From the NCBI GenBank assembly GCA_947174365.1, contig CAMWIR010000001.1:9100-73099 (forward strand): a stretch of 64,000 nt of DNA, given 5' to 3'. The notes under the pieces are model-generated. The model searched no databases, was not told the origin of the DNA, and worked only from the letters and a program-made list of their open reading frames with translations. The stretch comes from an uncultured Ruminococcus sp. (GTDB taxonomy: Bacteria > Bacillota > Clostridia > Oscillospirales > Ruminococcaceae). Positions 17,364-62,438 of the stretch are shown here, one piece after another. Numbering within the stretch: the first letter of the stretch is position 1; the number at the start of each line of letters is the position of its first letter. The translations under genes and the position numbers were made by a program.

Positions 17364-17368
17364 ATAAT

Positions 17369-17491: not shown

Positions 17492-17548
17492 GCTCTCTTA
17501 TAAGCCGGTTTTTTACGGTTAGTAAATTTCGGAAAATATTCAGTGATT

Positions 17549-17636: not shown

Positions 17637-17819
17637 GAGCATAAAATTATCCTTGTGCATTATCTCTTATATAACAGTGCACAGCACAAAATGCCTATAA
17701 ATCGCCGATTCTCGCTGTGTGTCCTATGGAATTCGGAGATTTGACGGGCTTTTCCCGGTTTGTGTCCTGTACATTTTTGCGTTTGGAGTGTTATAATAAG
17801 GTTGATGAAAGGAGGGCTG

Positions 17820-46896: not shown

Positions 46897-49230
46897 TTAG
46901 TTGAATACTATCTGCACCGCCGATTCTTTATCGGTGACAAAGCTGTAAACATTGCCCTCTTTTGTCACATCAAGGGGTTCTTCCTTTTTTTGCGCGCCTA
47001 TGCCGCTGACCTTTGTAAACCTTGCGGGAATATCCGAACGCAGCTTTGCCTTTACGCCCTCAATGCAGCTCACGACAGCTTTTTTTATCTTGCCCTCCTG
47101 CCACTCAAATTCAATGCACATGCCGCCTCTGCCGTAAAGTCTTGCCTTGCCCGACTGCCATGAGGGGGGCAGGGCGGGCAATAGCTTTATCTCACGGCTA
47201 TGGGTCTGCAAAAGGGCTTCGATTATGCCTGCCGCACCTCCGAAGTTGCCGTCTATCTGGAAAGGCGGGTGCATATCGAACATATTTATTGAAGTAGACC
47301 AGCTGAGCAGAGCCTTTATATTCTCCTCCACCTTTTCGCCCTCGTGGAGACGTGCCCACATATTGATTATCCATGCCCTTGACCAGCCCGTATGTCCGCC
47401 TCCGTGGGCAAGTCTGCGCTCCAGTGTAGCTTTAGCTGCTGCGGCAAGCTCGGGTGTTTCTTCGGGGGTTATTATATTTGACGGATAGAGGGCATATAGC
47501 TGAGAGATATGCCTGTGTCCGGGCTCTACCTCGTCATAGTCCTCCGCCCACTCCATTATCTGACCGTATTTGCCTATTTCGGGCTTTGGCAGACGTTCCC
47601 TTGCCGCCATTATTTTTTTCACGGTTTCCTCCTGCTCGGGCGTTATCTTTCTTTCGTCGATCCCGAGATTCACCCAAAAACCGTACACATCCGTAAACAG
47701 GGTGTAAAGTATCTGACTGTCCATGGAAGGACCTTTGCAGAGAGTTCCCGTGCTGCCGTTTTTGGCGTAATAGGTATTTTCGGGGGAAACAGAGGGGTTT
47801 GTTACAAGTCTGCCCTTTTCGTCCTCGGTAAGAAAGTCAAGGAAAAATTCCGCTGCCTCCAGCATGGTATCAAATTTTTCCTCAAGGAAATCATAATCAC
47901 GTGTGTAGCAGAAATGCTCCCATAAATGGGTGCACAGCCACGCCATGCCCATTGGCCACAGAGTGCCGGGCAGCCACTTGTCCTGGGGGGCGGTATCTCC
48001 CCAGATGTCGGTGTTATGGTGGCAGACTGTGCCCCGGCAGTTGTACATTTTCCTTGCGGTGACTCTGCCGTTTTCACGCATTCTCTCGATATGGTCAAAG
48101 AGGGGTGTGTGGCAAACGCCCAGACCCTGCGCCTCGGCTGCCCAGTAGTTCATTTCCGTATTGATGTTTACGGTATATTTTCCCCCCCAGGCAGGCCACA
48201 TATCCTTATTCCATATGCCCTGGAGATTCAGGGGCAGCGTGCCCTCACCCGAACCGGAGATCATAAGATATTTGGAAAAATTGAAGTAGAGGTTCACAAG
48301 CTCGTTGTCCTTTGCCCCGTTTTTGACAGCGTTAAGGCGTTCCTCGGTGTTTGCGGGGACTTCATTTATCGGGTCAATGTGGACATACGAACGGGAATAC
48401 AGAGAGTTGTAATATCTGTCATGTCGTTTCCAAAGGGTATCGTAAGCTTTTCTTGCGGCGGTTTTCGCCTCGCTTACCGCTTTTTTCACATAATCCCCCG
48501 TGCGCCATGAGGACTGGGCGGATATGAAAATATCGGCGGAACTTGCATTTTTGCAGTATATCCTGTTAGCCTCCGTGCCGCATTCTCCGTCATCTGAGCG
48601 GACGGTTATGGCGCAGGCATAGGGAATGCCGTCGGAAACGGTGAAAAGGAGGGTCTTATCGTCGTATGCCTCGTTTTTGTCGTAGTTGTCGTCTCTGCCG
48701 TCAATGGCGGCGGTAAAGCTTATGCCGCCCTTTGCGGATGTGAAATGAATGACTATTACCTCGTCGGGCTTTGAGGCGAAAATCTGACGTGTGAATGTGT
48801 TATCGCCCACGGTAAATTTTGTTTCCTGCAAAGCAAAATCAAGGAGCAGCGTTCTTTGGTAATCGGAATACTCGCCATCAAAATGCTGCCAAATATGCAG
48901 GTCGCCCAAAGGCTGATAATGGCGTTGGTTTTCGTTTGTGCCGTAAAAGGCGTGTGAGCAGAGCGCCTCCGCTTCGGTGGTTTTTTCCTCGTTTATGAGG
49001 GTGCGCATTTTCTCCAAATTATCATATGCCAGCGGATTGTTTCTGTCACGGAAATCTCCCGACCAGAGGGAATCCTCGTTGAGCTGTATCAACTCGGCGG
49101 CGGGGTCGCCGAAAACCATTCCCCCCAGTCTGCCGTTGCCGACAGGCAAAGCCTCGTTCCAGTCGGCGGCAGGGCGGGTGTAGAATAGGGTGTGGGATCT
49201 ATCTATTTTTTCCTGACTGTTTCCGAACAT
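46897..49230 (-). CDS. GH95 alpha-1,2-L-fucosidase (cytoplasmic)
   Basis: WNEALPVGNGRLG, QLNEDSLWSG, NLQGIWN, KYTVNINTEMNYW, EPGHRHISQL, TGWSRAW, PPFQIDGNFG. No signal peptide. Confidence 0.92.
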   Translation of the reverse strand: MFGNSQEKIDRSHTLFYTRPAADWNEALPVGNGRLGGMVFGDPAAELIQLNEDSLWSGDFRDRNNPLAYDNLEKMRTLINEEKTTEAEALCSHAFYGTNENQRHYQPLGDLHIWQHFDGEYSDYQRTLLLDFALQETKFTVGDNTFTRQIFASKPDEVIVIHFTSAKGGISFTAAIDGRDDNYDKNEAYDDKTLLFTVSDGIPYACAITVRSDDGECGTEANRIYCKNASSADIFISAQSSWRTGDYVKKAVSEAKTAARKAYDTLWKRHDRYYNSLYSRSYVHIDPINEVPANTEERLNAVKNGAKDNELVNLYFNFSKYLMISGSGEGTLPLNLQGIWNKDMWPAWGGKYTVNINTEMNYWAAEAQGLGVCHTPLFDHIERMRENGRVTARKMYNCRGTVCHHNTDIWGDTAPQDKWLPGTLWPMGMAWLCTHLWEHFCYTRDYDFLEEKFDTMLEAAEFFLDFLTEDEKGRLVTNPSVSPENTYYAKNGSTGTLCKGPSMDSQILYTLFTDVYGFWVNLGIDERKITPEQEETVKKIMAARERLPKPEIGKYGQIMEWAEDYDEVEPGHRHISQLYALYPSNIITPEETPELAAAAKATLERRLAHGGGHTGWSRAWIINMWARLHEGEKVEENIKALLSWSTSINMFDMHPPFQIDGNFGGAAGIIEALLQTHSREIKLLPALPPSWQSGKARLYGRGGMCIEFEWQEGKIKKAVVSCIEGVKAKLRSDIPARFTKVSGIGAQKKEEPLDVTKEGNVYSFVTDKESAVQIVFN

Positions 49231-49777: not shown

Positions 49778-49894
49778 AAATACCTCCATAAATTTATCCG
49801 AAAAGTTTGGCGGATCAGAAGATTTCCTTTAAAAAACAACTGCTGATCTAATCGGACGGCAAATTCGGTTAAATCAGCACTTGCTTTTTTTATT

Positions 49895-49988: not shown

Positions 49989-51074
49989 TTACATACCGGT
50001 GAGACCCGATCTTGCGATACCCTCGGTAAAATTCTTCTGCAAGAAGATGTACATTATCAGAATTGGGGTAATGGAGATAAGGCAGCCCGATTCCATCCAC
50101 ACGATAAGCTCACGCTGGTTTACCTTAACGTTACCGTTGTTAAAGATAACTCTTGTAAGAGAAGCGTCCAGGTTTTTCAGCTGAAGCGCAATGGTGCTGT
50201 TGTCGGTGAAGAAAGATGTACTTACATAGTAATCATTCCAGTACCATACGACCGAAAGCAGGAATACCGTAAGGAAAGTCGAACCTGCGTTGGGGATCAT
50301 TATGCTGACAAATGTTTTAAGGGGTGAGCAGCCGTCGAGGTACGCTGCATCCTCCAGTTCCTTGGGAAGCCCTCGGAAAGACTGACGGAAGAGGAATATA
50401 AACAGTCCCGCTTTGATCCCGTTAGCCGTAAGGGCGGGCATATACATGGTCAGTGGAGAGTTGATAAGGTTGATATAATTTCCCGTAATCATGTGGTAAA
50501 CGCCCAGGGGGTTAAAGTAACGGAAGAACATATACTGGGGAATGAGTATGATCTGGGGCGGCATAAGGATCATCATTATTACCACGCCGAACAGTATTCC
50601 CTTGCCCTTGAAGTTGAAACGCCCGAAGCCGTAGCCTGTGATGGCGCAGGTGATTACCTGCAGGACGGAGCAGCCGATATTGAGGAACAGTGTATTCATC
50701 AGCGTTTTGCCGAATTCCATTGTTCTTGCGGCGTCCTTGATATTGGACAAGGTATATGTCCTTGACAGCCAGATTATGGTGGGGTCGTTCATCTCCGAAC
50801 GGGGGCGGAATGCTGCTGTTATCATATACAGCAGGGGGTAGATGATTACGAAGCAAAGTCCGAAAACCAGAAGCGCACGGCATATGGGCCACACTGCATC
50901 AAAGGCTCTTTTCCTTTTCAGGTACTTCTGCTCCATGGGGGTAAGGGTGGCCAGTCTTTTCTTAAAGCGCTCCCTTTCCTCCTTGCGGGATCTTTTTTCC
51001 TCCTTGGGAGGCTTGTCGGCAGCTCGTTTTTTCATGAACGCCGAAATGGGGTTATCCTTTACTGCTTCTGCCAT
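49989..51074 (-). CDS. Carbohydrate ABC permease (MalG-like)
   Basis: GYGFGRFNFKGK, EAA loop LPKELEDAAYLDG, VWYWND. Confidence 0.93.
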   Translation of the reverse strand: MAEAVKDNPISAFMKKRAADKPPKEEKRSRKEERERFKKRLATLTPMEQKYLKRKRAFDAVWPICRALLVFGLCFVIIYPLLYMITAAFRPRSEMNDPTIIWLSRTYTLSNIKDAARTMEFGKTLMNTLFLNIGCSVLQVITCAITGYGFGRFNFKGKGILFGVVIMMILMPPQIILIPQYMFFRYFNPLGVYHMITGNYINLINSPLTMYMPALTANGIKAGLFIFLFRQSFRGLPKELEDAAYLDGCSPLKTFVSIMIPNAGSTFLTVFLLSVVWYWNDYYVSTSFFTDNSTIALQLKNLDASLTRVIFNNGNVKVNQRELIVWMESGCLISITPILIMYIFLQKNFTEGIARSGLTGM

Positions 51075-51088
51075 TATTCTGCCTCCTT

Positions 51089-51979
51089 TTAATCATCATA
51101 GTAGACGATACGGTTCATTACTGCGAAGATAATGCCGACCGCCAGCAGTACGATTGCGAAGTAACTCCATGCCATTGCCGCCGAGTAGCCGTAGCGCCAG
51201 TCATCCTGTACGGAAAGCACCTGCTCCATGACAACGTTGGTGGGGTCTGTAAAGGTGTCAATAATGGTGTAAACCAGGTTTACAAGGATCATGGGGGATA
51301 CATAGGGAAGAGTTATCTTCCAGAAGAATTCCCATGAAGTAGCACCCTCAATGGCTGCGGCTTCCTTAGCCGAGGTGGGTATGCCCTGAAGTGCGGACAG
51401 GAAAATGATTATCTGAATGCCGCATTTCCACACAAGGTTCAGAATGTCGGAAGTCATGGTGGAAAGCATATCGGTAAGCTGGTCGTTAAAGCCGTAAATT
51501 CCCACAAATTCCAGCAGCTCGTCAACCATATCCGAGGAGAACATTGTGGAAAACTGCTCGGCGTCGGCTGTTCCGCTGGTGTCAAGGTTACCTGTGATGA
51601 TTGCATATACAGGACCTGTGGCGATAATTACAGGCAGGAAGAATACCGCTCTTGCAAATGTTCTTCCTCTGAATTTCTGGTTGATGATGATCGCCACAAA
51701 CAGGGAGAACACCAGTATTACAGGCAGCTGCCATGCGGTCTGCCCCAGAACCGAGGTGAGGTTTACTCTGAAATCAGGGTCGGTGGCAAAGGCTCTTTTG
51801 TAGTTTGCAAATCCCAAGGGAGACATTATCAGCGCACCGACGTCGGGCTTTACATCATAGAATGAGTAAATGAAAGACTGGATAACAGGGATAATGAAGA
51901 ACATCAGCGCTCCCACAAACCACAGGGCTATAAAGCCGTAGCCGTAGAGACCCTTTTTCTTTTCGTAGGACATTCTCAT
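51089..51979 (-). CDS. Carbohydrate ABC permease (MalF-like)
   Basis: FARAVFFLPVII, IFLSALQGIP...EAAAIEGAT. Confidence 0.93.
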   Translation of the reverse strand: MRMSYEKKKGLYGYGFIALWFVGALMFFIIPVIQSFIYSFYDVKPDVGALIMSPLGFANYKRAFATDPDFRVNLTSVLGQTAWQLPVILVFSLFVAIIINQKFRGRTFARAVFFLPVIIATGPVYAIITGNLDTSGTADAEQFSTMFSSDMVDELLEFVGIYGFNDQLTDMLSTMTSDILNLVWKCGIQIIIFLSALQGIPTSAKEAAAIEGATSWEFFWKITLPYVSPMILVNLVYTIIDTFTDPTNVVMEQVLSVQDDWRYGYSAAMAWSYFAIVLLAVGIIFAVMNRIVYYDD

Positions 51980-54282
51980 TTGCCGAGTACCTCCTCTCCC
52001 AGATAGTCGGACAGCTTATAGGTCTTGCCGTCCGCTTCAATGGATTTTTTCTTGTAGTTTACCACTGTTTTGTAGCCGTTGCTGTAGGTAGTCTCTATTT
52101 CGTTGCCCTCGTGGGTTATCTCATAGGAAACTATGGTAGCGTCGGCAGCAGGGGTAAGCACTTCGTTTGCCAGGCTGTAAAGCTTTGCAGCGTCGTCAGC
52201 CCAGTTTGCATAGTATGCGTAGTAGTATTTATCCAGCTTGGTGTCTTTAAGCTCGGCTGCGGGAATGCCCACAAAGTCAAAGCTCAGGTTGCTGCCTGCG
52301 GCAAGGTCGGTGAGAACTGCCTCGGCAATATCCGCCTCGCTGTTTACAGCACAGCCTGCATAGGGTGTAATCCCGTGCATTACCATCTGATAGAAGGGGA
52401 TCTCATAATCAAACAGGTCGAATTTGCTGGAATAGGAGGGAACATTGGCGATATAGTCCGCATAGGGCAGAACATAAGCTGCTGCGTTATCCGCCAGCAC
52501 TGTACCGTCGGACTTTGCGTCGGCATATATATCGGTGATTATTCCCTTTGCCTTTTCTCTTGACACAGCCTTTCTGCTGTAGTCACCGTAAATGGTATTG
52601 GAAAGAGCGCCGAAAGAGTAATTGCTTATGCCGTTCTTGCGATAGCTCTTCAGGAGCTTTGTAAACGCCTTGTTATAGGAATCGGGAGTAAAGAGCGACA
52701 GCGGATCGTAATACTCGTTCGCTATACCGTGTGCCCTGTCATATTCGGAGATCTGAGCATAGGCGTTGGAAACTCTCATGGCGGTGTTGGTCATATTCCA
52801 GTAGCCGTTGCCTGTCTTATAGGTAAGATTCGTTACCGAGGGGAAAAGCTTTATGTTGTTTGACTCGGCGTAGGATTTGAGGCTCTTGAACTTGCTCTTG
52901 CCGCCGAGCTTTGAGGCGGGGTTAAAGGAATCGGTTATCTTCTCGCCTATGTCCTCATCGGTATACTTGTGGTAAGTCACGACCATATCGTCAACGCCGT
53001 TTTCACCCAGGGTCTGAAGCAGATACTGAGCTGTAGCAAAGGTGGTAACGGGTTCTTTTACCGTTACGGGCAGCCCTGCTACGGACTCGGTTTTAAGCGT
53101 GCCGCCGTACAGGTCAAGGAAAAGGGAGGAAGAATCGGTGAGATCCTTATCCACAACGCCCTTGTCGTTAATGAGATATTCCCTGTACTTTTCGGCAATG
53201 TCCACATAGTCCACTTTACCGTCGTCGGAGGATACGGGGTAATATCTTACCTCTACCTCGGGAACGAGTATGCCTCGCTTTTCAAATACCTTTAAGGGGT
53301 TCGACTCGCCGCCCATAAGGTATTCATCCTGGGTGCGAAGCTCGAAATCGAAATAAGTCGAGTTGTAATCGGTGTTCTGCTGGTTGGAAACGTAGGTATT
53401 GATAGAAGCGCAGGTGTCGCCCTTGTCGGCAACCACCATAAGTCCCGCATCCTGACCGCCGTCCCTGCCCTGCTTTACTATGCCGAACATGGGCATATTC
53501 ACATTCTGGATAACAGCCTGCTTCTGGGTCTTTACTATTGTAATGTTCCTGCCGTAGACAATGCCCGTATAGGTTTTCATGCCGGTCTTGCCGTTATTGA
53601 ACTCTATTACAGCGCCGCCGCCGTCGGGCACTACAAAGTAGCCCTCGTCCTCCAGTCCCGCAGCGCCGAAGGTAGTCATAAGCGCAAGGTCGCATACAAG
53701 CTGACCGTCATAGCTGGAGGGGTTGTTTTCATGTATCTGTTTTGTGTCGATATAGAGCTTTAAGTAGCCGTCCTGCAAGGTGAACTCCACGGGAATATCA
53801 ATGCCGGGCTGGTCGAAGGAATAGGTTATCCGAACGCCGTCTGTGATCTTCTCCATTTTATAGCTGCCCTTGCCGTGGCTGTTCTGGGTAGTTGTGGAAC
53901 GGGGGTACGGCTCACCGTAGGTAAGGGTCATTCCCGAGGCAAGCTCCTGCTTCTGGCTGAGCTTTGCATTGGAAGTCTCCAGATCCACGGGGTTCGACCA
54001 CCATATCTTGCCCGACTTCTTGTCCTCTAAGGCAAGAGTTCCCTCCTTGGAGTTCATATACAGAGTAAGGTCTCCCTTAGTGGAGAGCTTCTCCATTAAA
54101 GCCATTGCCTCTTCCTCTGTTCTCGGAGTTTCCTCTTCCTCCTCTTCTTCATCCGCAGACTCGGAGGATTCGGCAGATGTGTCCTCCTCGGGAGCGTCCT
54201 CGGAATAAACGGAAGCGGCAGAGGGTATCATCATTGCCAGACACAGCAGGAAAGCCAGACTCTTTTTAAGCTTTGAATTCAT
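51976..54282 (-). CDS. Secreted DUF5696-like protein
   Basis: Signal peptide MNSKLKKSLAFLLCLAMMIPSAA, acidic linker, GYFVVPDGGGAVI motif; stop overlaps the permease start. Confidence 0.75.
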   Translation of the reverse strand: MNSKLKKSLAFLLCLAMMIPSAASVYSEDAPEEDTSAESSESADEEEEEEETPRTEEEAMALMEKLSTKGDLTLYMNSKEGTLALEDKKSGKIWWSNPVDLETSNAKLSQKQELASGMTLTYGEPYPRSTTTQNSHGKGSYKMEKITDGVRITYSFDQPGIDIPVEFTLQDGYLKLYIDTKQIHENNPSSYDGQLVCDLALMTTFGAAGLEDEGYFVVPDGGGAVIEFNNGKTGMKTYTGIVYGRNITIVKTQKQAVIQNVNMPMFGIVKQGRDGGQDAGLMVVADKGDTCASINTYVSNQQNTDYNSTYFDFELRTQDEYLMGGESNPLKVFEKRGILVPEVEVRYYPVSSDDGKVDYVDIAEKYREYLINDKGVVDKDLTDSSSLFLDLYGGTLKTESVAGLPVTVKEPVTTFATAQYLLQTLGENGVDDMVVTYHKYTDEDIGEKITDSFNPASKLGGKSKFKSLKSYAESNNIKLFPSVTNLTYKTGNGYWNMTNTAMRVSNAYAQISEYDRAHGIANEYYDPLSLFTPDSYNKAFTKLLKSYRKNGISNYSFGALSNTIYGDYSRKAVSREKAKGIITDIYADAKSDGTVLADNAAAYVLPYADYIANVPSYSSKFDLFDYEIPFYQMVMHGITPYAGCAVNSEADIAEAVLTDLAAGSNLSFDFVGIPAAELKDTKLDKYYYAYYANWADDAAKLYSLANEVLTPAADATIVSYEITHEGNEIETTYSNGYKTVVNYKKKSIEADGKTYKLSDYLGEEVLGK

Positions 54283-54313
54283 TATATAATCACCACTTTT
54301 CAAATTTGATCTG

Positions 54314-54943
54314 CTACACTCTCAGCCGGTAGGAAATTTCCGTGTAGATCGTGAAGATGAATATCAGCACCTGCTGGAAAAGGGTCAGCAGCAGCACCAA
54401 CAGGAATATCACCGCTATCATTGCCACTAAGGTAAGGGCAATAAGTGCAAGGGTCTTTCCGAAAGAGAACTGGTGGACCGCTTTCATTGCCGAGATGAAC
54501 AGCACCACTGTCCATGCCGTGCCTATGACCTCAAATGCCTGAATGAATATGTACTCATCTCTTATAAGCACATGGGACAGCACCGTACCGATAAGATACC
54601 CCGCTATATAAGGTATCAGCGAGTAGGCGGTAACAATGAAGATATTTTTCATTGACCCCTCCCCGTCGAAGAGGGTGCACATTGCCCAGTTGCAGACAAC
54701 ATACAGCAGGAACAGTCCGAAAGACTGGAAAATGTAGGGAATGATGTTGAAAAGCTTATCGTAGTCGGTGTAATACTGGAAGCCGTACATACGGTTGTAA
54801 GCCAGCGCCTGTATAAACAGCAGGCAGACTATGCCCAAAGCTATTTTCATAGAACCGGCTTTTTTCCACCGCAGATCCTCAAAGCCCTCAAAGGGGTGCA
54901 TAACTACGTGTTTTACAAATTGCCCCTGGGTAAGATCCAGCAT
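54314..54943 (-). CDS. Yip1-family membrane protein
   Basis: HPFEGFEDLR, MCTLFDGEG, AYSLIPY; about five TM helices. Confidence 0.8.
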   Translation of the reverse strand: MLDLTQGQFVKHVVMHPFEGFEDLRWKKAGSMKIALGIVCLLFIQALAYNRMYGFQYYTDYDKLFNIIPYIFQSFGLFLLYVVCNWAMCTLFDGEGSMKNIFIVTAYSLIPYIAGYLIGTVLSHVLIRDEYIFIQAFEVIGTAWTVVLFISAMKAVHQFSFGKTLALIALTLVAMIAVIFLLVLLLTLFQQVLIFIFTIYTEISYRLRV

Positions 54944-54946
54944 AAC

Positions 54947-56566
54947 TTACACACCTCCCTTTCTTTGCCACGGGAATGTGATGATTCCCTTTTTGTTGAG
55001 CGAGCCTATCACCTTGACCGCCACAACGATAACTATTATAAGGATTATCGCAGGGGTGAACCATTTCTGGAGTATCTGGTCACGGTAGCCCTCAAAGGCT
55101 CTGTTATACCGTCTGCGGCTTTGGGAAATTTTAAAGTATTCCATAGCCTCCTTGTACTGCTCTGCGGAAAGCAGGGCATTGCCTACGCCCACATATGCTC
55201 TGCGGTAGTTGCCGTCAAACTTGATAACGGTCTGCCAGGGCTGGAAGGATTCCTCATAATAGCCCGCATTGTAAAGGTTGGTCGCCTCGGTAACAATATC
55301 GCCGAAGGCGGTACGCTCAAATACGGTTATGCCGTTTTTGCGGGAGTCGAGAACAAACAGCTTGTTGTCATAGCTCTCAATGGCGGAAACGCTGCGGAAG
55401 GTACCCAGCTGGTCGCCGTCGCCGCCCAGTACGAACATAAGGTTTGCCATTTTATCGTACTGGAACACTCTGCCGTGAGCAAAATCCAGAATGTTCATCT
55501 CTCCGTTGGGACCTATATCAATATCCGTAAGAGCGGAAGTCTTGGTATAGATAGAATAGTATGCGGGAGGGATATCTCCGAAAAAGGTATCGTCACCCAG
55601 CGCCGAGGAAAGGATATTTGCGCCTCGGGGGTTAAGCTTCTTTACAACGTCCGTCTTAACGTCCGCAGACTCGGTAACGGTGTAGATAAAGCCGTCGTCA
55701 TCAAGATCGAAGTTGGTGAAGCCTACAGGAGTGGTCTTCGTCATTCTGTCACGCTGCGCCTGGGTGGAGATAGTGTTCCAGAATGCGTTCATGATTATCT
55801 CGGAGGTAGCCTCAACTCGGTTCGCACCGTAGAAGCCTATGAACTCTCCCGCAATGTCGAACATTACCGCACCCCTTGTTACCGAGCGGACTACAATGTA
55901 AACATTGCCCGCTTTGTCCACAGCAACTTTTCTGGGGTTATAGGTAAGGTTCTGGTCGTAAAGCTCAGTCACGGGCTTTTCAAACAGTCTGTCGACTGTG
56001 CCTCGTGTATCGCACTTTATGACTCTGCCTATGGCGTTGTTCACTATCTCGCCCTCGTCATTCAGCTCTCCGCCGCCCTCGGAATCGCATATGTAGATAT
56101 ATCCCGTGTACTTATCCACAAACACGCCCTCGGGGTTTTTGAGCTTTAAGGTCTTGCCGTTGTAATAGAAAGTGTCAAGATAGTTTACAAGGTTGAAATC
56201 AAGGTCTGTCACCAGTATTCTGTTGTTTGCCTTATCAGCTATATAAAGCAGATTGTCGCCCGATATGAACATATCCGCAGGCTCTTTCATGTTAAGGAGA
56301 TTTTTCCATTCCTCCTCGTCATAATCGAAGCCGTTCATTGCCTCAACGTGCTCATACAGTCCTTTTATTTTCTGACCGTCAATAAATTCGGAAGCGGTAT
56401 ATCCTGCCTGGGAGGAAACTGCGTCTCCCCACTGGTCATAGCTGTAAGGGTCGTAGCTTTCCGCAGCGCCGGCATTAACTGCGTTCACGGCACAAGCCGA
56501 GATCATCACAGCCGCTGCGCCTGCCGTGCAGAACAGTCTTTTAAGAACGTGCCCTTTGCCTGACAT
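54947..56566 (-). CDS. Exported NHL-repeat beta-propeller / TPR-like protein with C-terminal membrane anchor
   Basis: Signal peptide, LYIADKANNRI, PEGVFVD, PRKVAVDKAGNVYI, helical AYVGVGNAL repeat, C-terminal TM. Confidence 0.82.
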   Translation of the reverse strand: MSGKGHVLKRLFCTAGAAAVMISACAVNAVNAGAAESYDPYSYDQWGDAVSSQAGYTASEFIDGQKIKGLYEHVEAMNGFDYDEEEWKNLLNMKEPADMFISGDNLLYIADKANNRILVTDLDFNLVNYLDTFYYNGKTLKLKNPEGVFVDKYTGYIYICDSEGGGELNDEGEIVNNAIGRVIKCDTRGTVDRLFEKPVTELYDQNLTYNPRKVAVDKAGNVYIVVRSVTRGAVMFDIAGEFIGFYGANRVEATSEIIMNAFWNTISTQAQRDRMTKTTPVGFTNFDLDDDGFIYTVTESADVKTDVVKKLNPRGANILSSALGDDTFFGDIPPAYYSIYTKTSALTDIDIGPNGEMNILDFAHGRVFQYDKMANLMFVLGGDGDQLGTFRSVSAIESYDNKLFVLDSRKNGITVFERTAFGDIVTEATNLYNAGYYEESFQPWQTVIKFDGNYRRAYVGVGNALLSAEQYKEAMEYFKISQSRRRYNRAFEGYRDQILQKWFTPAIILIIVIVVAVKVIGSLNKKGIITFPWQRKGGV

Positions 56567-56636
56567 ATCATCACCCTTTTCTGTAAATTCTTCACGCTGT
56601 AAATTGCACCCGGTGCAATTTACACAGTACAAATGC

Positions 56637-57614
56637 TTAGTCTTTCATACCTGCGTGAGCCATGGTTTCCATAACGTTTCTCTGCGCCAGAACGAACACC
56701 AGCAGGGGAGGTATCATAAGTACCACCGCAGAGGCTGCGATCGCGCCCTGCCTTGCCATACCTGCCGCCGCTATCTGCTGGACTACTACAGGAATGGTCT
56801 TGAGCGCCTCATCATAGACAAGGCCGCCGCCGTTGGTGTTCCATGCAGTCTGGAACTCAAAGATGATAATTGTCATAAGCGCAGGCTTACAGTTGGGCAT
56901 TACTATGCCCCAGCATATCCGCAGCAGCCCCGAGCCGTCCACCTTGGCTGCCTCTATCATAGCGTCGGGTATGGTGCTCATGCTCTGCCTCATCAGGTAA
57001 AGACCCATAGTGGAAGCAATGATAGGCAGGATCAGTGCGGAATATGTATTGATCATGCCGAGGGTAGCCATTACCATATACTGCATGATGTACAGTACAG
57101 TGGAGTTAAAGAGCAGGGCAATGACTACTACCTGGTTGAGAAGCGCATTTCCGGGGAATTTGCACTTTGAGAGTACAAACGCCGCAGTGGAGGCAAACAG
57201 CACGTGGAACACGCACGCCACAACAGTAACGAAAATACTGTTGAACACGTTTCTCGAAAAGGGAACCCAGGAATCGCTGGCGATCTTGAAAAGGTCGCGG
57301 AAGTTATCTGTGGTGGGGTCCATCGCATAAAGCTTAGGCGGCATGAGGAATACCTCCTGCACAGGCTTTATGGAGTTTACCACTGCAAGATAAATGGGGA
57401 AGATCATAAACAGACCCGTAAAGAACAGCAGCAGGAAAATGCCTACATCATTTTTCCAGGATTTGCCCACCTGTTTGTTGGAGCCTTTGGATTTGAGCAT
57501 TTTCTTATGCTCTTTTTCTCTGCGCTTTTTTAAGGCTTCCAGCGCCGCAGCGTTTTCCGCCTCCTGAAGAGCGGCAAGCTCGGAGGGCTTCAGATTCTTC
57601 TTGTTTTTCTTCAT
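56637..57614 (-). CDS. Carbohydrate ABC permease (MalG-like)
   Basis: YLMRQSMSTIPDAMIEAAKVDG, FQTAWN. Confidence 0.93.
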   Translation of the reverse strand: MKKNKKNLKPSELAALQEAENAAALEALKKRREKEHKKMLKSKGSNKQVGKSWKNDVGIFLLLFFTGLFMIFPIYLAVVNSIKPVQEVFLMPPKLYAMDPTTDNFRDLFKIASDSWVPFSRNVFNSIFVTVVACVFHVLFASTAAFVLSKCKFPGNALLNQVVVIALLFNSTVLYIMQYMVMATLGMINTYSALILPIIASTMGLYLMRQSMSTIPDAMIEAAKVDGSGLLRICWGIVMPNCKPALMTIIIFEFQTAWNTNGGGLVYDEALKTIPVVVQQIAAAGMARQGAIAASAVVLMIPPLLVFVLAQRNVMETMAHAGMKD

Positions 57615-57635
57615 TTTACGTAAACTCCCCCCTTA

Positions 57636-58601
57636 TCAGTCAACATATTTGCCAAGCAGCTTGCTTATAAGGTTGTTGCACACAAGCATTGCTATGAACA
57701 GAACGAAACATACAGCGGAGGCGTAACCCATCTCATACCTTACCCAGCCGTAGTCATAAGCGTGGGTCATAATGGTATGTACCTTGTAGTCGGTAGAAGG
57801 GAAGCCCGCAAGGGTTCTACCCACGATATCAACGGTAAAGGAGGAAACTATCTGCATTACCGCAGCGAACATCAGGGAGGGCCCCATGGAGGGTATGGTT
57901 ATGTAGATAAGCTCCTGGAAACGGGACTTGATTCCCTCGATAGCGCCCGCCTCATACATGGACTTGTCAATACCCTGGAAGCCCGCTCTCATAGCAAGGA
58001 AGCCCGCACCCATGGATACCCACAGCTGAACCACGATAACGCAGCCGAGCACATAGTTTCCGTCGGTGAGCCACTGCTTGGCAGCGGAGGTAAAGCCCAG
58101 CTCCATAAGGAAAGCGTTGAGATAACCGTACTGGTCGCCCGAGAAAATGAGCTGCCATACGAAGTAGATGTTACCTGCCATTGACGGTGCGTAGAACACC
58201 AGAGTAAACAGGGTCTTAAGAGTGGGGTGCAGCTCGTTTATCAGCCACGCCAGCATAAAGCTCATGGCATAGCTGAGAGGCCCTGTAAAAATTGCGAAAA
58301 TAAGGGTCGTTCTGATGGACTGGATAAATACATCGTCCTCCAGGAACATTGAGTAGAAATTCTGAAAGCCGATCCACTTGGGAAAGCTTGCCATATTAAA
58401 GTCGGTAAAGCCCATGGGAAGCGACATTACTACAGGTATTACCGTAAATATGAGAAACAGTATCATAAACGGCGCAAGCATTACATAGCACATATAGTTT
58501 CGCTTCATCTCGTGGAGAGTGTAGTCGCGCTTTTCCTTGCGGGACATTTTTCTCTCTGAGGGCAGCAGAATTTCCTTTTTTACTGAAGTATTTTCAGCCA
58601 A
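57636..58601 (-). CDS. Carbohydrate ABC permease (MalF-like)
   Basis: FTLVFYAPS, AGFQGIDKSMYEAGAIEG, EMGYASA. Confidence 0.93.
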   Translation of the reverse strand: MAENTSVKKEILLPSERKMSRKEKRDYTLHEMKRNYMCYVMLAPFMILFLIFTVIPVVMSLPMGFTDFNMASFPKWIGFQNFYSMFLEDDVFIQSIRTTLIFAIFTGPLSYAMSFMLAWLINELHPTLKTLFTLVFYAPSMAGNIYFVWQLIFSGDQYGYLNAFLMELGFTSAAKQWLTDGNYVLGCVIVVQLWVSMGAGFLAMRAGFQGIDKSMYEAGAIEGIKSRFQELIYITIPSMGPSLMFAAVMQIVSSFTVDIVGRTLAGFPSTDYKVHTIMTHAYDYGWVRYEMGYASAVCFVLFIAMLVCNNLISKLLGKYVD

Positions 58602-58621
58602 GGCTAAAGCCCTCCTTTCTT

Positions 58622-61558
58622 TTAGTCATCAAGACCTAAGTTTTTGCGCTTACGGGTAATTTCCGTGTTGATATCCTTATTGTACCAGCGAAGGGTCTCA
58701 CGGGCGTTGTCAGCGTCGTTTACAACGGCTCTGAATGCGTTCATGATACTTCTTGTTACAACGTAGGAGGACGGGATAATGGGTATTTCGTCCAGCTCGT
58801 TCAGCTGAGCGTTGATCTTTGAAAGGTCGGATTTCGACCAGTTGAGCTTCTGAAGAGCCTCAACATTTGCAGACTCAAACCGCCCTAAGGGGCCCATTAC
58901 GCCCTCAACATTCTGACCGTAGGTCACCATTGTGTCGGTGTCGGTGAACCACTTGATGTATTCCCAGGCGCCGTCCACATTCTTGCAGTCCTTTAATACG
59001 ATAAAGCCCGAACCGGAGGAGTTAGCCGCATGGGAAACAGTGCCGTCCTCACGTCTTGTTCCGGGAACGGGGCAGAAGTCCCACGCACCCTTTATTTCGG
59101 GAGCTGCCACATTCAGCTGATTGTAGAATGAGCAGTAGTTCTGGATAACTATAGGCGCTTCACCTGTTCTGAATCGGGAGAATGCGTCGTAAACCTGATC
59201 GAAGTTGTATGTAGTGTAGAATTTTGTCCACATATCAAATGCGTCAACCGCTGCCACAGTATCAAAGTTTGTGGCGGTCTGGTCGGCATTGTAGTAGTTC
59301 TGACCCGTTTGCAGCATAAGCATTGCAAAGGTGTGGCCTACCTCGGTGGAGGGGGCAACAGCGTTTCCGTTGACATTGGCGGGGAGGATAAGCCCGGGCT
59401 GCATATATTTGCGCTGGATAGCAGGGAGCATATCTATAAGATCCTGCCAGGTCTCGGGAGGCTCTGTAATGCCTATTTCCGAAAGGGTATCGGTGCGGTA
59501 GAACATCATGGGGAATGTTCTCTGAATGGGTATGCCGTATGCCTTATCATCATAAGTGTAATGAACCATTGCAGTTTCCTGGAAACGGCTCTTCACCTCG
59601 TCAAAGCCCGGCATATCGTCAAGAGGGATAAGCAGATCGCGGATAGCAAGGTTTACGGGGAACTCACCGCCTACGAACATTGCAACGTCCGGTCCTTTAC
59701 CTGCAAGCACTGCCTCCATAATAGTACCTTGTACCAGGTTAATGGAAACGTCAATGCCTGTCTGGGGAGTAAATTCCGACTCGGTAAGCTGCTTTACAAC
59801 CGTTGTCTGGTCACGTCCGAGACCTACCCATACAATTACCGAATCCGCCGAGGAATCGGAAAGCACGGTGTAATCCTCAAAGAAAGAACCGAAAAATCCT
59901 TTTGCGGAAAATGCTATCGACTTAAAGAAATTTTCCTTGACGCTTGTGAATTCCGACTTTTTGCCCTTGCCGTCAAAGGCGGGGAGCAGCTCAATAAAAT
60001 CTATCTCCAGGGGCTGGTCGCGGTATTCTCTCATCCAGGAGGAAACTGCGCTTATATTATCCTTCATGGAGGAGTTGGAGATATAGTCGGGGATCTTGTT
60101 GGGCTTGTTAATGCAGCGGTCAAACACGTCTGCAAGACGGGCAAGCACCGTTGCTTCCGAACCCGAGGAATCGGAGAGGCCCTCTATGATCTCCTGCTCG
60201 TTTTTCAGCTCCGCCGACAACGTTACACACGCCTCCATAAAATCGGGCATTTCGTTGTAAATACGGTAATCGGTGTATTTGTCGGGGTTAGGACCCGTTA
60301 TCATCAGTATCTTGCGGTAGTAGCTGTTAGCCTCGTAAACCACACTGTCCAGACGGCGCATGGATTCGCCGATTTCCCCGGGAATAGCCTCAAGAGTAAG
60401 CTCGTGAGTTCCTGCGGTAAGGTAAACATACGCTTCCTCTCCCGTGCTGTCCGTGGGGGAAACCATGATCCAGTCAGTGGAGTAGTTGAACTTCACCTGC
60501 TCGAAAGGCTCGGAAGGAACTTCGCCGTCAATATAAATGCGGCGATTGGAATACAGACCTCTCATTACGTCCTGTCTGCCCTTTATGCCTATTTTATAGT
60601 ACCCGTCCTGGGGCACGTTCATTTCCCAGGTAACAGTCTGTCCCGATGTGTCCCAGGTGCCGTCGCCTACGGTGTTGTACCGCTCTTTAACGGGGTGGGA
60701 GGGGTTGCCCGTATGATCCTCGGTCAGATATGTGCCTCGGTCATAGGTGGGGAATATGGTCTGGGAATTGGTATTCTTGTAGCTCTCACCCTGTAATCTG
60801 ATAGGCTCTGCACCGTCGTTTTTGTGCAGATCATCATCGGAGGGGCGCTTGTATGCCTGTGCAGGCTCATATTGGAAAAGACTGAGATCGGCAATAGCCA
60901 CGGAAGCTTTTTCCGAAGAAAGACTTATGGTATGCTCTCCTTCATCCAGATAGAAGTACAGCGGTTCATTGAAAAGTCCGTCGGAATCCTTAAAAGAGGT
61001 CGTTACCCACTTGGGATCCTCTATCTGCGGGGGACGGGTCTCGTTGTCCCTCTCGTTGGGTGCGATCTCATACTTAGACTTCCATACCCTGGGGAATGAA
61101 ACACGGCTTGCTGTGTCGAAAGGAATTTCGCCGTCAATAAGCACGGACATTTCCGAGGTAGTGTTGCCGCCCGTAATGGGGAAATATGTCGCCTGAATGT
61201 TGTAAGCGCCCGCTGTTTCCACATTGACCTTGAAATTCAGCTTGCCGTCCTCATTGCTCCATATGACAACATTGTTCTTGCCCTCGTAAGAACCCACCTC
61301 GACCTCTGCGCCGTTTTCGCAGGAATCGTAGGTCATGGACATACCCTCGATATTCTTGGTTCTTGGCCGCGGGGCGTCAGCGATCTCGTCGTGGTAATCG
61401 CTGTAGGTCTTTTGCTTTTCGTACATGATTGTCGCTTGTCCGTCCGACTGCGAGCCGCCCGATTCATCGGCAAGCGCAGTAAAGGAGAATGAACCGAGAC
61501 ATACGGTCACAGCTGTAACGCCGGACAAAAATCGTTTCAGACTGGTTTTCCTTGACAA
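58622..61558 (-). CDS. Very large extracellular solute-binding protein (N-terminal beta-sandwich-like domains plus SBP family 1 domain)
   Basis: Signal peptide without lipobox; C-terminal FTPQTGIDVSI, GPDVA, PMMFYRTD, PPETWQDL, WDFCPVPG, AWEYIKWF. TTG start inferred from RBS spacing (ORF-track start 61570). Confidence 0.85.
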   Translation of the reverse strand: MSRKTSLKRFLSGVTAVTVCLGSFSFTALADESGGSQSDGQATIMYEKQKTYSDYHDEIADAPRPRTKNIEGMSMTYDSCENGAEVEVGSYEGKNNVVIWSNEDGKLNFKVNVETAGAYNIQATYFPITGGNTTSEMSVLIDGEIPFDTASRVSFPRVWKSKYEIAPNERDNETRPPQIEDPKWVTTSFKDSDGLFNEPLYFYLDEGEHTISLSSEKASVAIADLSLFQYEPAQAYKRPSDDDLHKNDGAEPIRLQGESYKNTNSQTIFPTYDRGTYLTEDHTGNPSHPVKERYNTVGDGTWDTSGQTVTWEMNVPQDGYYKIGIKGRQDVMRGLYSNRRIYIDGEVPSEPFEQVKFNYSTDWIMVSPTDSTGEEAYVYLTAGTHELTLEAIPGEIGESMRRLDSVVYEANSYYRKILMITGPNPDKYTDYRIYNEMPDFMEACVTLSAELKNEQEIIEGLSDSSGSEATVLARLADVFDRCINKPNKIPDYISNSSMKDNISAVSSWMREYRDQPLEIDFIELLPAFDGKGKKSEFTSVKENFFKSIAFSAKGFFGSFFEDYTVLSDSSADSVIVWVGLGRDQTTVVKQLTESEFTPQTGIDVSINLVQGTIMEAVLAGKGPDVAMFVGGEFPVNLAIRDLLIPLDDMPGFDEVKSRFQETAMVHYTYDDKAYGIPIQRTFPMMFYRTDTLSEIGITEPPETWQDLIDMLPAIQRKYMQPGLILPANVNGNAVAPSTEVGHTFAMLMLQTGQNYYNADQTATNFDTVAAVDAFDMWTKFYTTYNFDQVYDAFSRFRTGEAPIVIQNYCSFYNQLNVAAPEIKGAWDFCPVPGTRREDGTVSHAANSSGSGFIVLKDCKNVDGAWEYIKWFTDTDTMVTYGQNVEGVMGPLGRFESANVEALQKLNWSKSDLSKINAQLNELDEIPIIPSSYVVTRSIMNAFRAVVNDADNARETLRWYNKDINTEITRKRKNLGLDD

Positions 61559-61801
61559 AAGATAGACCACCTTTCGTGTGAGAATAGGTCATATTGTGAG
61601 CAGCACACGCAGTGCACATACCGCGCCGTGCATTCCATACCTTTCGGACATACAGCACACACCATTTGTGATACACACAACATTCACCGCCGCAATTTTG
61701 CTGTTTGTTGTTTTGCATGGCGGTAATATTTAACCAAACGCCGCTTCATTTATGTATTTTTGTAATGTGCATTTGGTGAAAAAATATGAACCCGTATAAT
61801 A

Positions 61802-61829
61802 ATTATAACAATTATACAAAGACTTGTCA
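61802..61829 (-). promoter_or_regulatory. sigmaA promoter of the carbohydrate ABC operon
   Basis: Minus strand TTGACA-16-TATAAT, about 240 nt upstream of the first gene. Confidence 0.6.
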
Positions 61830-62042
61830 AGTAATTGTAGAATTTTTTGTGTATATTTTCGCGCTAATATTTTGGTAATTTGTCACAAAATTTTCAAAGT
61901 CCTATTGTTGCATTCTACGGATTGTATAATTAAAATCACATAATACGGGGAATTATGACATATTTTTTAGACAATATGTACAATTAACAAGCTCACCAAA
62001 ACAAAAACATCATATTTTTTTGTCAGGTCATTCTGCCGCCCA

Positions 62043-62278: not shown

Positions 62279-62438
62279 TATCTTCACACCCTTTTTATAC
62301 ATAACCGTAAGCAAATTGCAGCGCCATGACACTTTTACAAACAAAAACTGCAAAATGCAGCTAAAGAATATAGAAAATATTGTTCATTCATTATTATACA
62401 ACACTTTTTTTTATTTTGTCAATAGCCGCACAGCACAA

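What the first reader, a model, noticed from the sequence alone, without database searches (positions are those of the whole stretch)
49989..61558. Eight-gene multi-component glycan capture and import system (giant SBP, four permeases, NHL/TPR, Yip1, DUF5696-like)
Seen: tightly packed co-oriented genes (gaps of about 45 nt or less, one ATGA overlap): ~980-aa SBP, MalF, MalG, NHL/TPR membrane-anchored protein, Yip1, secreted DUF5696-like protein, MalF, MalG. There is no ATPase, regulator or recognisable hydrolase in the operon. Established: standard CUT1 importers have one ~430-aa lipoprotein SBP and two permeases, often sharing an MsmX-type ATPase. I recall this gene arrangement recurring in fibre-degrading Firmicutes without mechanistic characterisation. 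Inference: a Gram-positive analogue of a Sus-like envelope complex in which the propeller, Yip1 and DUF5696 proteins scaffold, tether or process polysaccharide for two permease pairs.
Basis: partly seen in the sequence, partly recalled or inferred. Interest (0 to 1): 0.8.

Follow-up and report, generated by a model that had tools for sequence, protein, structure and literature searches.

The report
Twin sugar importer with accessory trio
These eight genes are one copy of a widespread, apparently unstudied Gram-positive gene cassette in which two sugar-type ABC importers always travel with a giant sugar-binding protein, a membrane-anchored propeller/Yip1 protein and a glycosidase-shaped protein of unknown function.

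Summary
Eight co-oriented minus-strand genes (61570-49989) encode a 982-aa binding protein with two CBM6/35-like domains, two CUT1 permease pairs, an NHL-propeller/TPR/TM protein, a Yip1 protein and a true Pfam DUF5696 member.

The set is a fixed unit:
- All eight genes lie in the same order in 64 of 64 related Oscillospiraceae loci that are long enough to judge.
- The core (propeller-Yip1, DUF5696, second permease pair) is in 20 of 20 sampled loci across the phylum, Paenibacillus included.
- In 401 genomes, DUF5696 and the propeller protein co-occur almost perfectly.
- Propeller and Yip1 are fused into one protein in most lineages.
- Neighbouring enzymes differ between loci (GH26, GH10, pectate lyase, GH140, GH31; GH95 here), so the cassette is a generic platform.

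DUF5696 has a GH129/GH101-like fold, but the GH129 catalytic positions are not conserved (Gly565 here). Another Asp set (D227, D574, D632) is 85-96% conserved.

No paper names DUF5696. A physical complex and the substrate remain untested. This scan has noted the same cassette before on other DNA (339 notes, at least 272 genomes), with similar conclusions.

The parts
58622..61570 (-). Giant solute-binding protein (982 aa). It has a signal peptide, two CBM6/35-like beta-sandwiches (about aa 80-232 and 257-396), a helical bundle (about 398-518) and a CUT1-type SBP domain (about 560-980).
   Evidence: Pfam SBP_bac_8 and SBP_bac_1 match at aa 594-883; CBM_35 is below threshold (24.3 against 28 bits). 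In the AF2 model the N-terminal half is confident and the SBP domain is poor. Foldseek finds CBM35 (2w3j, 2w1w, 2w47) and CBM6 (2cdp, 8j3x), TMt 0.5-0.66. There is no lipobox and no 19-residue hydrophobic stretch above threshold.
57636..58601 (-). Permease P1F (MalF/UgpA type, 321 aa)
   Evidence: NCBIfam UgpA E 4.8e-15. EAA motif at aa 217. Orthologues 42-55% identical in distant loci.
56637..57614 (-). Permease P1G (MalG/UgpE type, 325 aa)
   Evidence: Pfam BPD_transp_1. NCBIfam UgpE E 2.2e-28. EAA motif at aa 221.
54947..56566 (-). Signal peptide, six-bladed NHL beta-propeller, TPR repeats and a C-terminal TM helix (539 aa from the ATG at 56566). It is fused to the next gene's product in most other lineages.
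   Evidence: Pfam NHL. The profile hits PknD-type NHL propellers and 'Pizza' designs at E 9e-21, and consensus TPR at E 3e-25. A TM helix lies at aa 527-545 of the long ORF. Fused propeller-Yip1 ORFs of 700-770 aa occur elsewhere.
54314..54943 (-). Yip1-family polytopic membrane protein (209 aa, about 5 TM)
   Evidence: Pfam Yip1 E 3.2e-17, 63.4 bits. It is the only Yip1 gene in the genome. Hydropathy.
51976..54303 (-). DUF5696 protein (768-775 aa). It has an N-terminal signal peptide or anchor, an acidic linker, a beta-sandwich, a (beta/alpha)8 barrel and a C-terminal beta-sandwich; the fold is GH129/GH101-like.
   Evidence: PF18952 E 5e-148. AF2 pLDDT 77, pTM 0.82. Foldseek: 8rzk (ZgGH129) E 1e-24 and 5wzn (NagBb) E 5e-19, then GH101, GH36, GH97 and GH31. 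hhalign against GH129 gives Prob 93%. Residue conservation.
51089..51979 (-). Permease P2F (296 aa); its start overlaps the DUF5696 stop (ATGA)
   Evidence: UgpA-like E 1.9e-13. EAA motif at aa 206 and a -4 gap. It lies directly after DUF5696 in 19 of the 20 distant loci; in the variant L154 three genes intervene.
49989..51074 (-). Permease P2G (361 aa)
   Evidence: BPD_transp_1 E 2.2e-14. UgpE-like. EAA-like motif at aa 241.
61802..61830 (-). Consensus sigma-70 promoter (TTGACA-17-TATAAT with TG extension) about 230 nt upstream of the SBP start; the likely operon promoter
   Evidence: 12 of 12 match. The upstream gene ends with a strong terminator at 62468-62441.
46897..49230 (-). Cytoplasmic GH95 (alpha-L-fucosidase / alpha-L-galactosidase family); a conserved downstream neighbour that probably acts on the imported sugar
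   Evidence: Glyco_hydro_95_cat E 1e-159. No signal peptide in the sequence. Neighbour of the cassette in 47 of 80 related loci.
62511..64000 (-). Sortase-anchored (SPKTG) surface protein of 563 aa with no known domain, running off the window end; a conserved upstream neighbour
   Evidence: No Pfam or NCBIfam hit. Full length read from the genome. Found upstream in 46 of 80 related loci.

Best explanation
This is one copy of a conserved cassette of Bacillota that imports oligosaccharides through two CUT1-type ABC permease pairs. A shared MsmX/MalK-type ATPase encoded elsewhere would power both pairs.

Proposed mechanism (inferred):
- The secreted giant binding protein uses two CBM6/35-like modules to hold polymer or large fragments at the cell surface. 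Its SBP domain loads oligosaccharide into a permease pair, probably P1F/P1G.
- The NHL-propeller/TPR/TM protein and the Yip1 protein act as one membrane subunit; they are fused in most lineages. By analogy with YknW of YknWXYZ, the Yip1 part docks on ABC membrane domains. The propeller/TPR part offers an extracellular platform that retains the anchorless binding protein and DUF5696.
- DUF5696 is a GH129-fold protein made stoichiometrically with P2F/P2G. I favour (about 55-60%) a substrate-holding or hand-over role at the second permease pair over ordinary hydrolysis. Catalysis by a shifted Asp pair (D574/D632) remains possible (about 40%).
- In this organism the cargo is probably a fucosylated (or L-galactosylated) oligosaccharide that the conserved cytoplasmic GH95 trims after import.

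Shown: gene content, strict synteny, co-occurrence, fusions, folds.
Inferred: contacts, direction of hand-over, substrate.
For: Gene content and families.

Fixed unit:
- 64 of 64 complete related loci have all eight genes in the same order.
- The same order occurs with unrelated flanks in L002/L003.
- 20 of 20 loci from at least 12 families, Paenibacillus included, have propeller-Yip1, DUF5696, P2F and P2G. The giant SBP with P1F/P1G lies upstream in 14 and downstream in 3.
- In 401 genomes, 32 have strong DUF5696 hits and 32 have the propeller protein, with 31 shared. The one DUF5696-only genome has a divergent propeller-Yip1 fusion next to it.

Single membrane subunit: propeller and Yip1 are one ORF of 700-770 aa in most lineages.

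Whole-cassette co-divergence: pairwise distance matrices of all eight parts correlate at r 0.80-0.95, and paralogous cassettes within one genome stay distinct.

Generic platform: neighbours are GH26, GH10, pectate lyase + GH106, GH140 + GH31, and GH95 here.

All four permeases carry EAA motifs, so both pairs should bind an ATPase. 17 of 18 congeners have an OB_MalK-type ATPase.

Binding protein: CBM6/35-like N-terminal domains and no lipid anchor.

DUF5696:
- GH129-like fold.
- The GH129 nucleophile position is Gly565 here and variable family-wide. The acid/base position is acidic in only 45% of 163 representatives.
- The only DUF5696 copy in several genomes lacks Asp574: His in three species of one genus, Asn in another genus.

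Precedent: YknW, a Yip1-family protein, modulates assembly of an ABC transporter (PMC4887032).
Against: - No physical interaction was tested, because no multimer prediction was available.
- No MsmX-type ATPase is present in this 99.7%-complete but 223-contig assembly.
- D227, D574 and D632 are 85-96% conserved across 163 divergent DUF5696 representatives. That fits a retained, GH-D-like catalytic centre as well as a binding or interface site.
- In some lineages a second, ordinary SBP sits beside the core. There the second permease pair need not depend on DUF5696 as its receptor.
- The signal-peptide versus anchor calls rest on hydropathy and inspection only.
- The SBP-domain half of the binding-protein model is of low confidence.
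- The substrate inference rests on a single neighbouring enzyme.
Confidence: 0.55

Rival explanations
1. DUF5696 is an active extracellular glycosidase of an unclassified GH family whose catalytic Asp has moved relative to GH129. It probably cleaves alpha linkages, like all its structural relatives. It would trim or debranch oligosaccharides at the membrane, and the two importers would then take up the products. On this view the propeller/Yip1 protein only anchors it.
For: - Full GH129/GH101/GH36/GH97/GH31-like three-domain fold, E down to 1e-24.
- D227 (96%), D574 (85%), D632 (90%), R582, N654, Q639 and W701 are conserved across 163 representatives that are under 50% identical to each other. 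This holds although the associated glycans differ, as expected for catalytic machinery.
- D574 follows strand 4 and D632 follows strand 6 of the barrel, the geometry of clan GH-D enzymes.
- The window's protein keeps all of these residues plus D605.
Against: - The residue aligned with the GH129 nucleophile is Gly565, and the acid/base column is variable.
- 15% of representatives lack Asp574. In several genera the only genomic copy has His or Asn there, yet the cassette is intact.
- D574 lies in a loop of lower model confidence.
- A single enzyme chemistry is hard to reconcile with xylan, mannan, pectin and fucosyl contexts.
- No profile match to any CAZy-linked Pfam catalytic family. hhalign against a GH31 sequence was not significant.
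Confidence: 0.3
2. The eight genes are two ordinary, independent CUT1 importers. Three unrelated surface proteins merely share the operon for co-regulation, with no common complex and no accessory role in transport.
For: - Each permease pair has its own F-type and G-type subunit with EAA motifs.
- Some lineages carry a second ordinary SBP, which would give two complete importers.
- No interaction has been shown.
Against: - Order and content are conserved down to about 25% identity across the phylum.
- Genome co-occurrence is near-perfect.
- DUF5696 and P2F are translationally coupled.
- Propeller-Yip1 fusions are widespread.
- The genome has only one Yip1 gene and one DUF5696 gene, both here.
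- All parts co-diverge.
Confidence: 0.1
3. The cassette handles a cell-envelope polymer (the cell's own wall or exopolysaccharide: recycling, remodelling or export) rather than dietary glycans. The neighbouring glycosidases would then be incidental.
For: - The system has no regulator or dedicated ATPase of its own.
- The variant in L154 sits with HlyD-like and MacB-like exporter parts.
- Yip1's one characterised bacterial partner is an exporter.
Against: - BPD_transp_1 permeases together with an SBP are the importer architecture.
- The neighbours are consistently plant or host glycan-degrading enzymes that change with the locus.
- The binding protein carries CBM6/35-like modules typical of plant-glycan recognition.
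- Up to three or more paralogous cassettes occur per genome in fibre degraders.
Confidence: 0.05

Closest known systems
CUT1-family ABC sugar importers of Firmicutes (TC 3.A.1.1; MalEFGK2, MsmEFGK, and systems that share the MsmX/MsmK ATPase)
   Same: MalF/UgpA-type and MalG/UgpE-type permeases with EAA motifs, an SBP_bac_1/8 binding domain, and an ATPase encoded elsewhere.
   Different: - Two permease pairs in one fixed operon.
- The binding protein is twice the normal size, has tandem CBM6/35-like domains and a helical domain, and has no lipid anchor.
- Three extra conserved proteins (propeller/TPR/TM, Yip1, DUF5696) that no described CUT1 system has.
Gram-positive polysaccharide utilisation loci (gpPULs; Sheridan et al. 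2016, as defined in PMC13543919)
   Same: A transporter encoded beside glycan-degrading enzymes, with paralogous copies placed next to different CAZymes in one genome.
   Different: No regulator lies in or next to this locus. The conserved unit is not the loose 'enzyme + transporter + regulator' grouping but a strictly ordered eight-gene transporter/accessory core.
GH129 glycosidases (NagBb alpha-N-acetylgalactosaminidase, PDB 5wzn; ZgGH129 3,6-anhydro-D-galactosidase, PDB 5opq/8rzk) and GH101
   Same: - Three-domain fold.
- Shared sequence motifs: the linker helix 'D-Y-V-x-I/M-A-x-x-Y-R/K', the 'P-L/F-Y-x-L/M-V' motif, and the C-terminal sandwich.
   Different: - No PF11308 match.
- The NagBb nucleophile Asp435 aligns at or next to Gly565.
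- The acid/base Glu478 aligns with Asp605, a column that is acidic in only 45% of the family.
- DUF5696 is always embedded in a transporter cassette.
YknW of the YknWXYZ transporter (Bacillus)
   Same: A bacterial Yip1-family polytopic membrane protein encoded with an ABC transporter. It is reported to modulate the transporter's assembly (PMC4887032).
   Different: YknWXYZ is a MacB-type exporter with a membrane-fusion protein. Here the Yip1 domain is joined, by gene or by fusion, to an extracellular NHL propeller/TPR module and sits with type I importer permeases. Sequence relatedness beyond the Pfam family was not tested.
Sus-like systems of Bacteroidota (SusC/SusD plus surface glycan-binding proteins and enzymes)
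   Same: Functional analogy only: a substrate-agnostic capture-and-import core, reused next to different enzyme sets and multiplied per genome.
   Different: No homologous component and no outer membrane. Import is by ABC permeases, not a TonB-dependent transporter.

Membership tests
CUT1 ABC importer (TC 3.A.1.1) | Two BPD_transp_1-type membrane subunits (F-type and G-type) with an EAA coupling motif | tested here: met
   Met twice over. P1F/P1G and P2F/P2G match UgpA/UgpE and MalF/MalG profiles, and all four carry EAA motifs.
CUT1 ABC importer (TC 3.A.1.1) | Extracellular solute-binding protein of the SBP_bac_1/8 class | tested here: met
   SBP_bac_8 E 8.8e-26 and SBP_bac_1 E 5.7e-24 at aa 594-883 of the 982-aa protein. 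There is only one SBP for two permease pairs.
CUT1 ABC importer (TC 3.A.1.1) | MalK/MsmX-type ATPase with a C-terminal OB/TOBE domain | tested here: inconclusive
   None in the operon. None in this assembly by OB_MalK, the MalK profile or tblastn. Present in 17 of 18 congeners, so an assembly gap is likely.
CUT1 ABC importer (TC 3.A.1.1) | Demonstrated sugar uptake | not testable with these tools
   Needs uptake assays.
Gram-positive PUL (gpPUL) | [quoted passage not shown] | tested here: not met
   An enzyme (GH95) and a transporter are present. No regulator was found from 44.6 kb of the window to 5 kb beyond its end.
Pfam DUF5696 (PF18952) | Score above the gathering threshold over the whole model | tested here: met
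   494.7 bits against 25.6; model positions 2-612 of 612.
GH129 (CAZy; Pfam PF11308) | Family-level sequence match | tested here: not met
   No PF11308 hit. The only link is a reciprocal weak overlap: a true GH129 protein matches the DUF5696 C-terminus at E 2e-10. hhalign gives Prob 93%.
GH129 (CAZy; Pfam PF11308) | Catalytic nucleophile Asp (NagBb D435) and acid/base Glu (E478) conserved | tested here: not met
   The nucleophile position aligns at or next to Gly565. In 163 representatives that column reads G 50, S 25, D 23. The acid/base column is D or E in 73 of 163. The alignment in this stretch is of modest confidence.
GH129 (CAZy; Pfam PF11308) | N-terminal beta-sandwich + (beta/alpha)8 barrel + C-terminal beta-sandwich fold | tested here: met
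   Foldseek: 8rzk E 1e-24 (TM 0.55/0.64) and 5wzn E 5e-19, on a model with pLDDT 77 and pTM 0.82.
Yip1 family (PF04893); YknW-like ABC accessory | Yip1 domain above threshold | tested here: met
   63.4 bits against 28.6.
Yip1 family (PF04893); YknW-like ABC accessory | Physical association with ABC transporter subunits | not testable with these tools
   Only synteny and gene fusion with the propeller protein are available.
NHL six-bladed beta-propeller with TPR | Repeated NHL blades and TPR motifs detectable by profile | tested here: met
   PknD-derived NHL propellers E 9e-21 to 1e-12, and consensus TPR E 3e-25, at profile positions 387-439. Pfam NHL 34 bits.
CBM6/CBM35 | Beta-sandwich CBM fold and a family sequence match | tested here: inconclusive
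   Fold matches to CBM35 and CBM6, E 4e-5 to 1e-4, TMt 0.5-0.66. Pfam CBM_35 scores 24.3 bits, below the 28-bit cut-off. Sugar binding was not tested.
Sus-like system | SusC-type TonB-dependent transporter with a SusD-type lipoprotein | tested here: not met
   None among the gene products. The resemblance is functional analogy only.

The most novel reading that the evidence does not exclude
The propeller-TPR-Yip1 protein and the GH129-fold DUF5696 protein, together with the second permease pair, form a new kind of type I ABC importer front end. In it, a glycosidase-derived non-SBP protein held on a Yip1 membrane dock acts as the substrate receptor or gate. In this single-SBP version it would do so without any classical binding protein for that pair. 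This could allow uptake of much longer glycan chains than classical SBP-dependent importers accept.
Probability: 0.15. Interest if true: 0.85.

Novelty: new variant of a known kind. Interest (0 to 1): 0.62.

Why it matters
ABC importers are the main route by which Gram-positive gut and soil bacteria take up plant and host glycans. They are thought to need only a binding protein, two permeases and an ATPase. This cassette adds three conserved proteins of unknown function and a CBM-bearing giant binding protein.

Its reach is large:
- DUF5696 alone has about 3,000 clusters at 50% identity.
- It occurs in 32 of 401 sampled Bacillota genomes, often in several copies.
- It sits beside xylan, mannan, pectin and fucosyl-glycan enzymes.

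If the parts form one machine, it would be the Gram-positive counterpart of the Sus paradigm and a new accessory principle for type I ABC importers. It would also give a function to a large DUF family and to bacterial Yip1 proteins. Cultured, tractable carriers (Paenibacillus) make it directly testable.

Tried and rejected
- The search for related loci with the broad DUF5696 alignment A2 failed for lack of a conserved stretch. A1 was used instead and returned only Oscillospiraceae MAGs.
- A sequence profile of DUF5696 against the PDB found no glycosidase. hhalign of A1 against a single GH129 protein aligned only the C-terminus.
- hhalign of a 163-sequence DUF5696 alignment against one GH31 sequence was not significant, Prob 0.2%. 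The GH-D-type reading of D574/D632 therefore rests on position in the barrel only.
- The ZgGH129 catalytic stretch could not be read: the alignments did not cover it.
- The AF2 model of the binding protein is poor in the SBP domain, overall pLDDT 54. Only its N-terminal half was interpreted.
- I considered that G350 shows DUF5696 can exist without the propeller/Yip1 protein. Rejected: a divergent propeller-Yip1 fusion lies directly upstream.
- I considered that the small second SBP seen in other lineages exists unlinked in this genome. No close homologue was found.
- Rfam found nothing credible in the 5' region.
- Literature searches found no description of the cassette: DUF5696; Yip1 + NHL + SBP; 'YIP1 family protein' + permease; gpPUL + propeller. 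Two Paenibacillus papers I checked do not mention it.

Full report
OBSERVATION

The eight genes are real and lie on the minus strand. Pfam and NCBIfam identify them as follows:
- A 982-aa protein whose C-terminal part (aa 594-883) is an SBP_bac_1/8 solute-binding domain.
- Two MalF/UgpA-type permeases (P1F, P2F) and two MalG/UgpE-type permeases (P1G, P2G).
- A protein with NHL repeats.
- A Yip1-domain protein (63 bits).
- A full-length member of Pfam DUF5696 (495 bits, cut-off 25.6).

A profile of the NHL protein's orthologues hits PknD-type six-bladed NHL propellers (E 9e-21) and consensus TPR repeats (E 3e-25). Hydropathy shows an N-terminal signal and a C-terminal TM helix.

Gaps between the genes are 20, 21, 70, 3, 31, -4 and 14 nt, and DUF5696 and P2F overlap in ATGA. 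All four permeases carry the EAA coupling motif, so both pairs should bind an ATPase.

A perfect extended -10 promoter lies about 230 nt upstream of the first gene, after a strong terminator of the preceding gene. The operon has no ATPase and no regulator.

IS IT A UNIT?

Close relatives:
- A 67%-identical DUF5696 protein sits in the same eight-gene order with completely different flanks.
- Of 80 related Oscillospiraceae/'Ruminococcus' MAG loci, all 64 with enough sequence have all eight genes in the same order. The other 16 are cut by contig ends.

Across the phylum:
- PF18952 is over its cut-off in 35 of 401 genomes sampled across the phylum, 32 of them with strong full-length hits.
- I took 20 kb around 20 hits from at least 12 families. 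One of these families is Paenibacillus.
- All 20 loci have propeller/Yip1, DUF5696, P2F and P2G in that order, at 22-40% identity.
- The giant SBP with P1F and P1G lies directly upstream in 14 loci and directly downstream in 3.
- The remaining 3 loci carry ordinary-sized SBPs instead.

Co-occurrence in genomes:
- A profile of the propeller protein finds 32 of the same 401 genomes, 31 of them shared with the strong DUF5696 hits.
- The one DUF5696-only genome has a divergent six-bladed-propeller/Yip1 fusion directly upstream.
- The one propeller-only hit is a fragment in a 250-contig assembly.

Further signs of a unit:
- In most lineages the propeller/TPR/TM protein and Yip1 are a single 700-770-aa ORF. 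That is a Rosetta-stone argument that they act as one membrane subunit.
- Pairwise distance matrices of the eight components across 18 cassettes correlate at r 0.80-0.95, and paralogous cassettes in one genome stay distinct. This is consistent with whole-cassette inheritance, although relatedness inflates such numbers.
- This genome has exactly one DUF5696 gene and one Yip1 gene, both here.

A GENERIC PLATFORM

Genes beside the cassette differ from locus to locus:
- GH26 in Paenibacillus.
- GH10.
- Pectate lyase with GH106.
- GH140 with GH31.
- Here, a GH95 without signal peptide, which is a neighbour in 47 of 80 related loci.

So the core does not depend on one substrate, and paralogues specialise (up to three or more copies per genome). 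For this organism the likeliest cargo is a fucosylated or L-galactosylated oligosaccharide that is trimmed in the cytoplasm. This is an inference from one enzyme.

THE GIANT BINDING PROTEIN

- An AF2 model is confident only for aa 76-540. That part comprises two beta-sandwiches and a helical bundle.
- Foldseek matches the sandwiches to CBM35 and CBM6 modules, TMt 0.5-0.66. This fits the sub-threshold Pfam CBM_35 hit.
- The protein has a signal peptide but no lipobox.
- In Paenibacillus and others, both this protein and DUF5696 instead begin with what looks like an uncleaved TM anchor.

DUF5696

Fold and homology:
- The AF2 model (pLDDT 77, pTM 0.82) matches GH129 enzymes best: 8rzk E 1e-24 and NagBb 5wzn E 5e-19. 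GH101, GH36, GH97 and GH31 follow.
- A true GH129 protein from the phylum also matches the DUF5696 model's C-terminus at E 2e-10.
- A global hhalign of 30 DUF5696 sequences against four GH129 sequences gives Prob 93%.

The GH129 catalytic residues:
- In the printed NagBb sequence, the catalytic Asp435 ('AYLD') and Glu478 ('TSSE') sit at those indices. That these are the catalytic residues is from my memory of the NagBb structure paper.
- By spacing from shared motifs (Arg582 = NagBb Arg455, and the 'PFYQMV' motif), the nucleophile position falls at Gly565 and the acid/base at Asp605.

Conservation across 163 representatives under 50% identical to each other (from a family of about 3,000 clusters at E 1e-30), as counted:
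- The nucleophile column reads G 50, S 25, D 23.
- The acid/base column is acidic in 45%.
- D227 is conserved at 96%, D574 at 85%, R582 at 88%, D632 at 90% and N654 at 91%.

D574 follows barrel strand 4 and D632 follows strand 6, which is the geometry of clan GH-D enzymes. A shifted catalytic pair therefore cannot be excluded.

Against an obligatory catalytic role: three species of one genus, each with a single DUF5696 copy, have His at 574, and another genus has Asn, yet the cassettes are intact.

I put a non-hydrolytic holding or hand-over role at about 55-60% and hydrolysis at about 40%.

ENERGY

- No MalK/MsmX-type ATPase is found in this assembly by OB_MalK, by the MalK profile or by tblastn with a congener's protein.
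- 17 of 18 congeners and all 12 other relatives have one.
- With 223 contigs, an assembly gap is the simplest reading.

COMPARISON WITH WHAT IS KNOWN

- The permeases and the SBP domain are ordinary CUT1 parts.
- The doubling of the permease pairs, the CBM-bearing anchorless SBP and the accessory trio are not described. No paper contains 'DUF5696'. Combined searches found nothing relevant. A 2026 review of bacterial glycoside transporters does not mention Yip1, NHL or accessory proteins.
- The one bacterial precedent for a Yip1 protein is YknW, reported to modulate assembly of the YknXYZ ABC exporter (PMC4887032).
- The divergent cassette in L154 carries HlyD-like and MacB-like genes between DUF5696 and the permeases.

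EARLIER NOTES OF THIS SCAN

- The same cassette has been noted 339 times in at least 272 genomes.
- Follow-up agents reached the same main points: a fixed cassette, a GH129-like DUF5696 without the usual catalytic residues, and no literature.
- I tested those points independently here.

VERDICT

This is a new variant of a known kind (CUT1 glycan importers). It is widespread, unstudied and testable in cultured Paenibacillus. Contacts, substrate and the role of each accessory protein remain inferred.

Noticed in passing
L154 (G350:C60:203500-223400), 6835-17882: A divergent cassette. Its order is: six-bladed propeller (DUF5128)-Yip1 fusion, DUF5696, a 295-aa unknown, an HlyD-like membrane-fusion protein, a MacB_PCD/FtsX permease, then P2F/P2G-like permeases, GH16 and a LuxR regulator. 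It links the Yip1 module to MacB-type parts, as in YknWXYZ.
   Followed up: partly
own genome (G000), all contigs: No MalK/MsmX-type ATPase (OB_MalK domain) is found in the 99.7%-complete assembly, although it has 18 BPD_transp_1 permease hits. 17 of 18 congeners have one. This is probably an assembly gap.
   Followed up: yes
window 62346-62422, minus strand: A second perfect TTGACA-18-TATAAT promoter (62422-62393) is followed within about 30 nt by a terminator-like hairpin (62362-62346). It lies upstream of the operon promoter. It could be a tiny transcript or a leader. No Rfam match.
   Followed up: partly
window 62511-64000 (gene continues to about 64202, beyond the window): A 563-aa sortase-anchored (SPKTG) surface protein with no Pfam or NCBIfam domain. 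It is conserved directly upstream of the cassette in 46 of 80 related loci and is a candidate wall-anchored glycan binder.
   Followed up: partly
window 49367-49789, minus strand: A DUF3788 gene sits between P2G and GH95 here. It found no match in any of the 80 related loci, and in the 96%-identical relative L060 the gap between P2G and GH95 is only 230 nt. It looks like a recent insertion.
   Followed up: partly
L054, L055, L057 (DUF6259 proteins); L053, L058 (alpha-amylases): The DUF5696 model gives weak sub-threshold matches (E 1e-4 to 5e-6) to the barrel regions of DUF6259 proteins and GH13 amylases. This suggests DUF6259 is another unclassified TIM-barrel relative.
   Followed up: no
G000:C20:11826-14771, minus strand: A 982-aa single-chain MacB-type protein: an ABC ATPase fused to a long extracytoplasmic region and an FtsX-type permease.
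   Followed up: no
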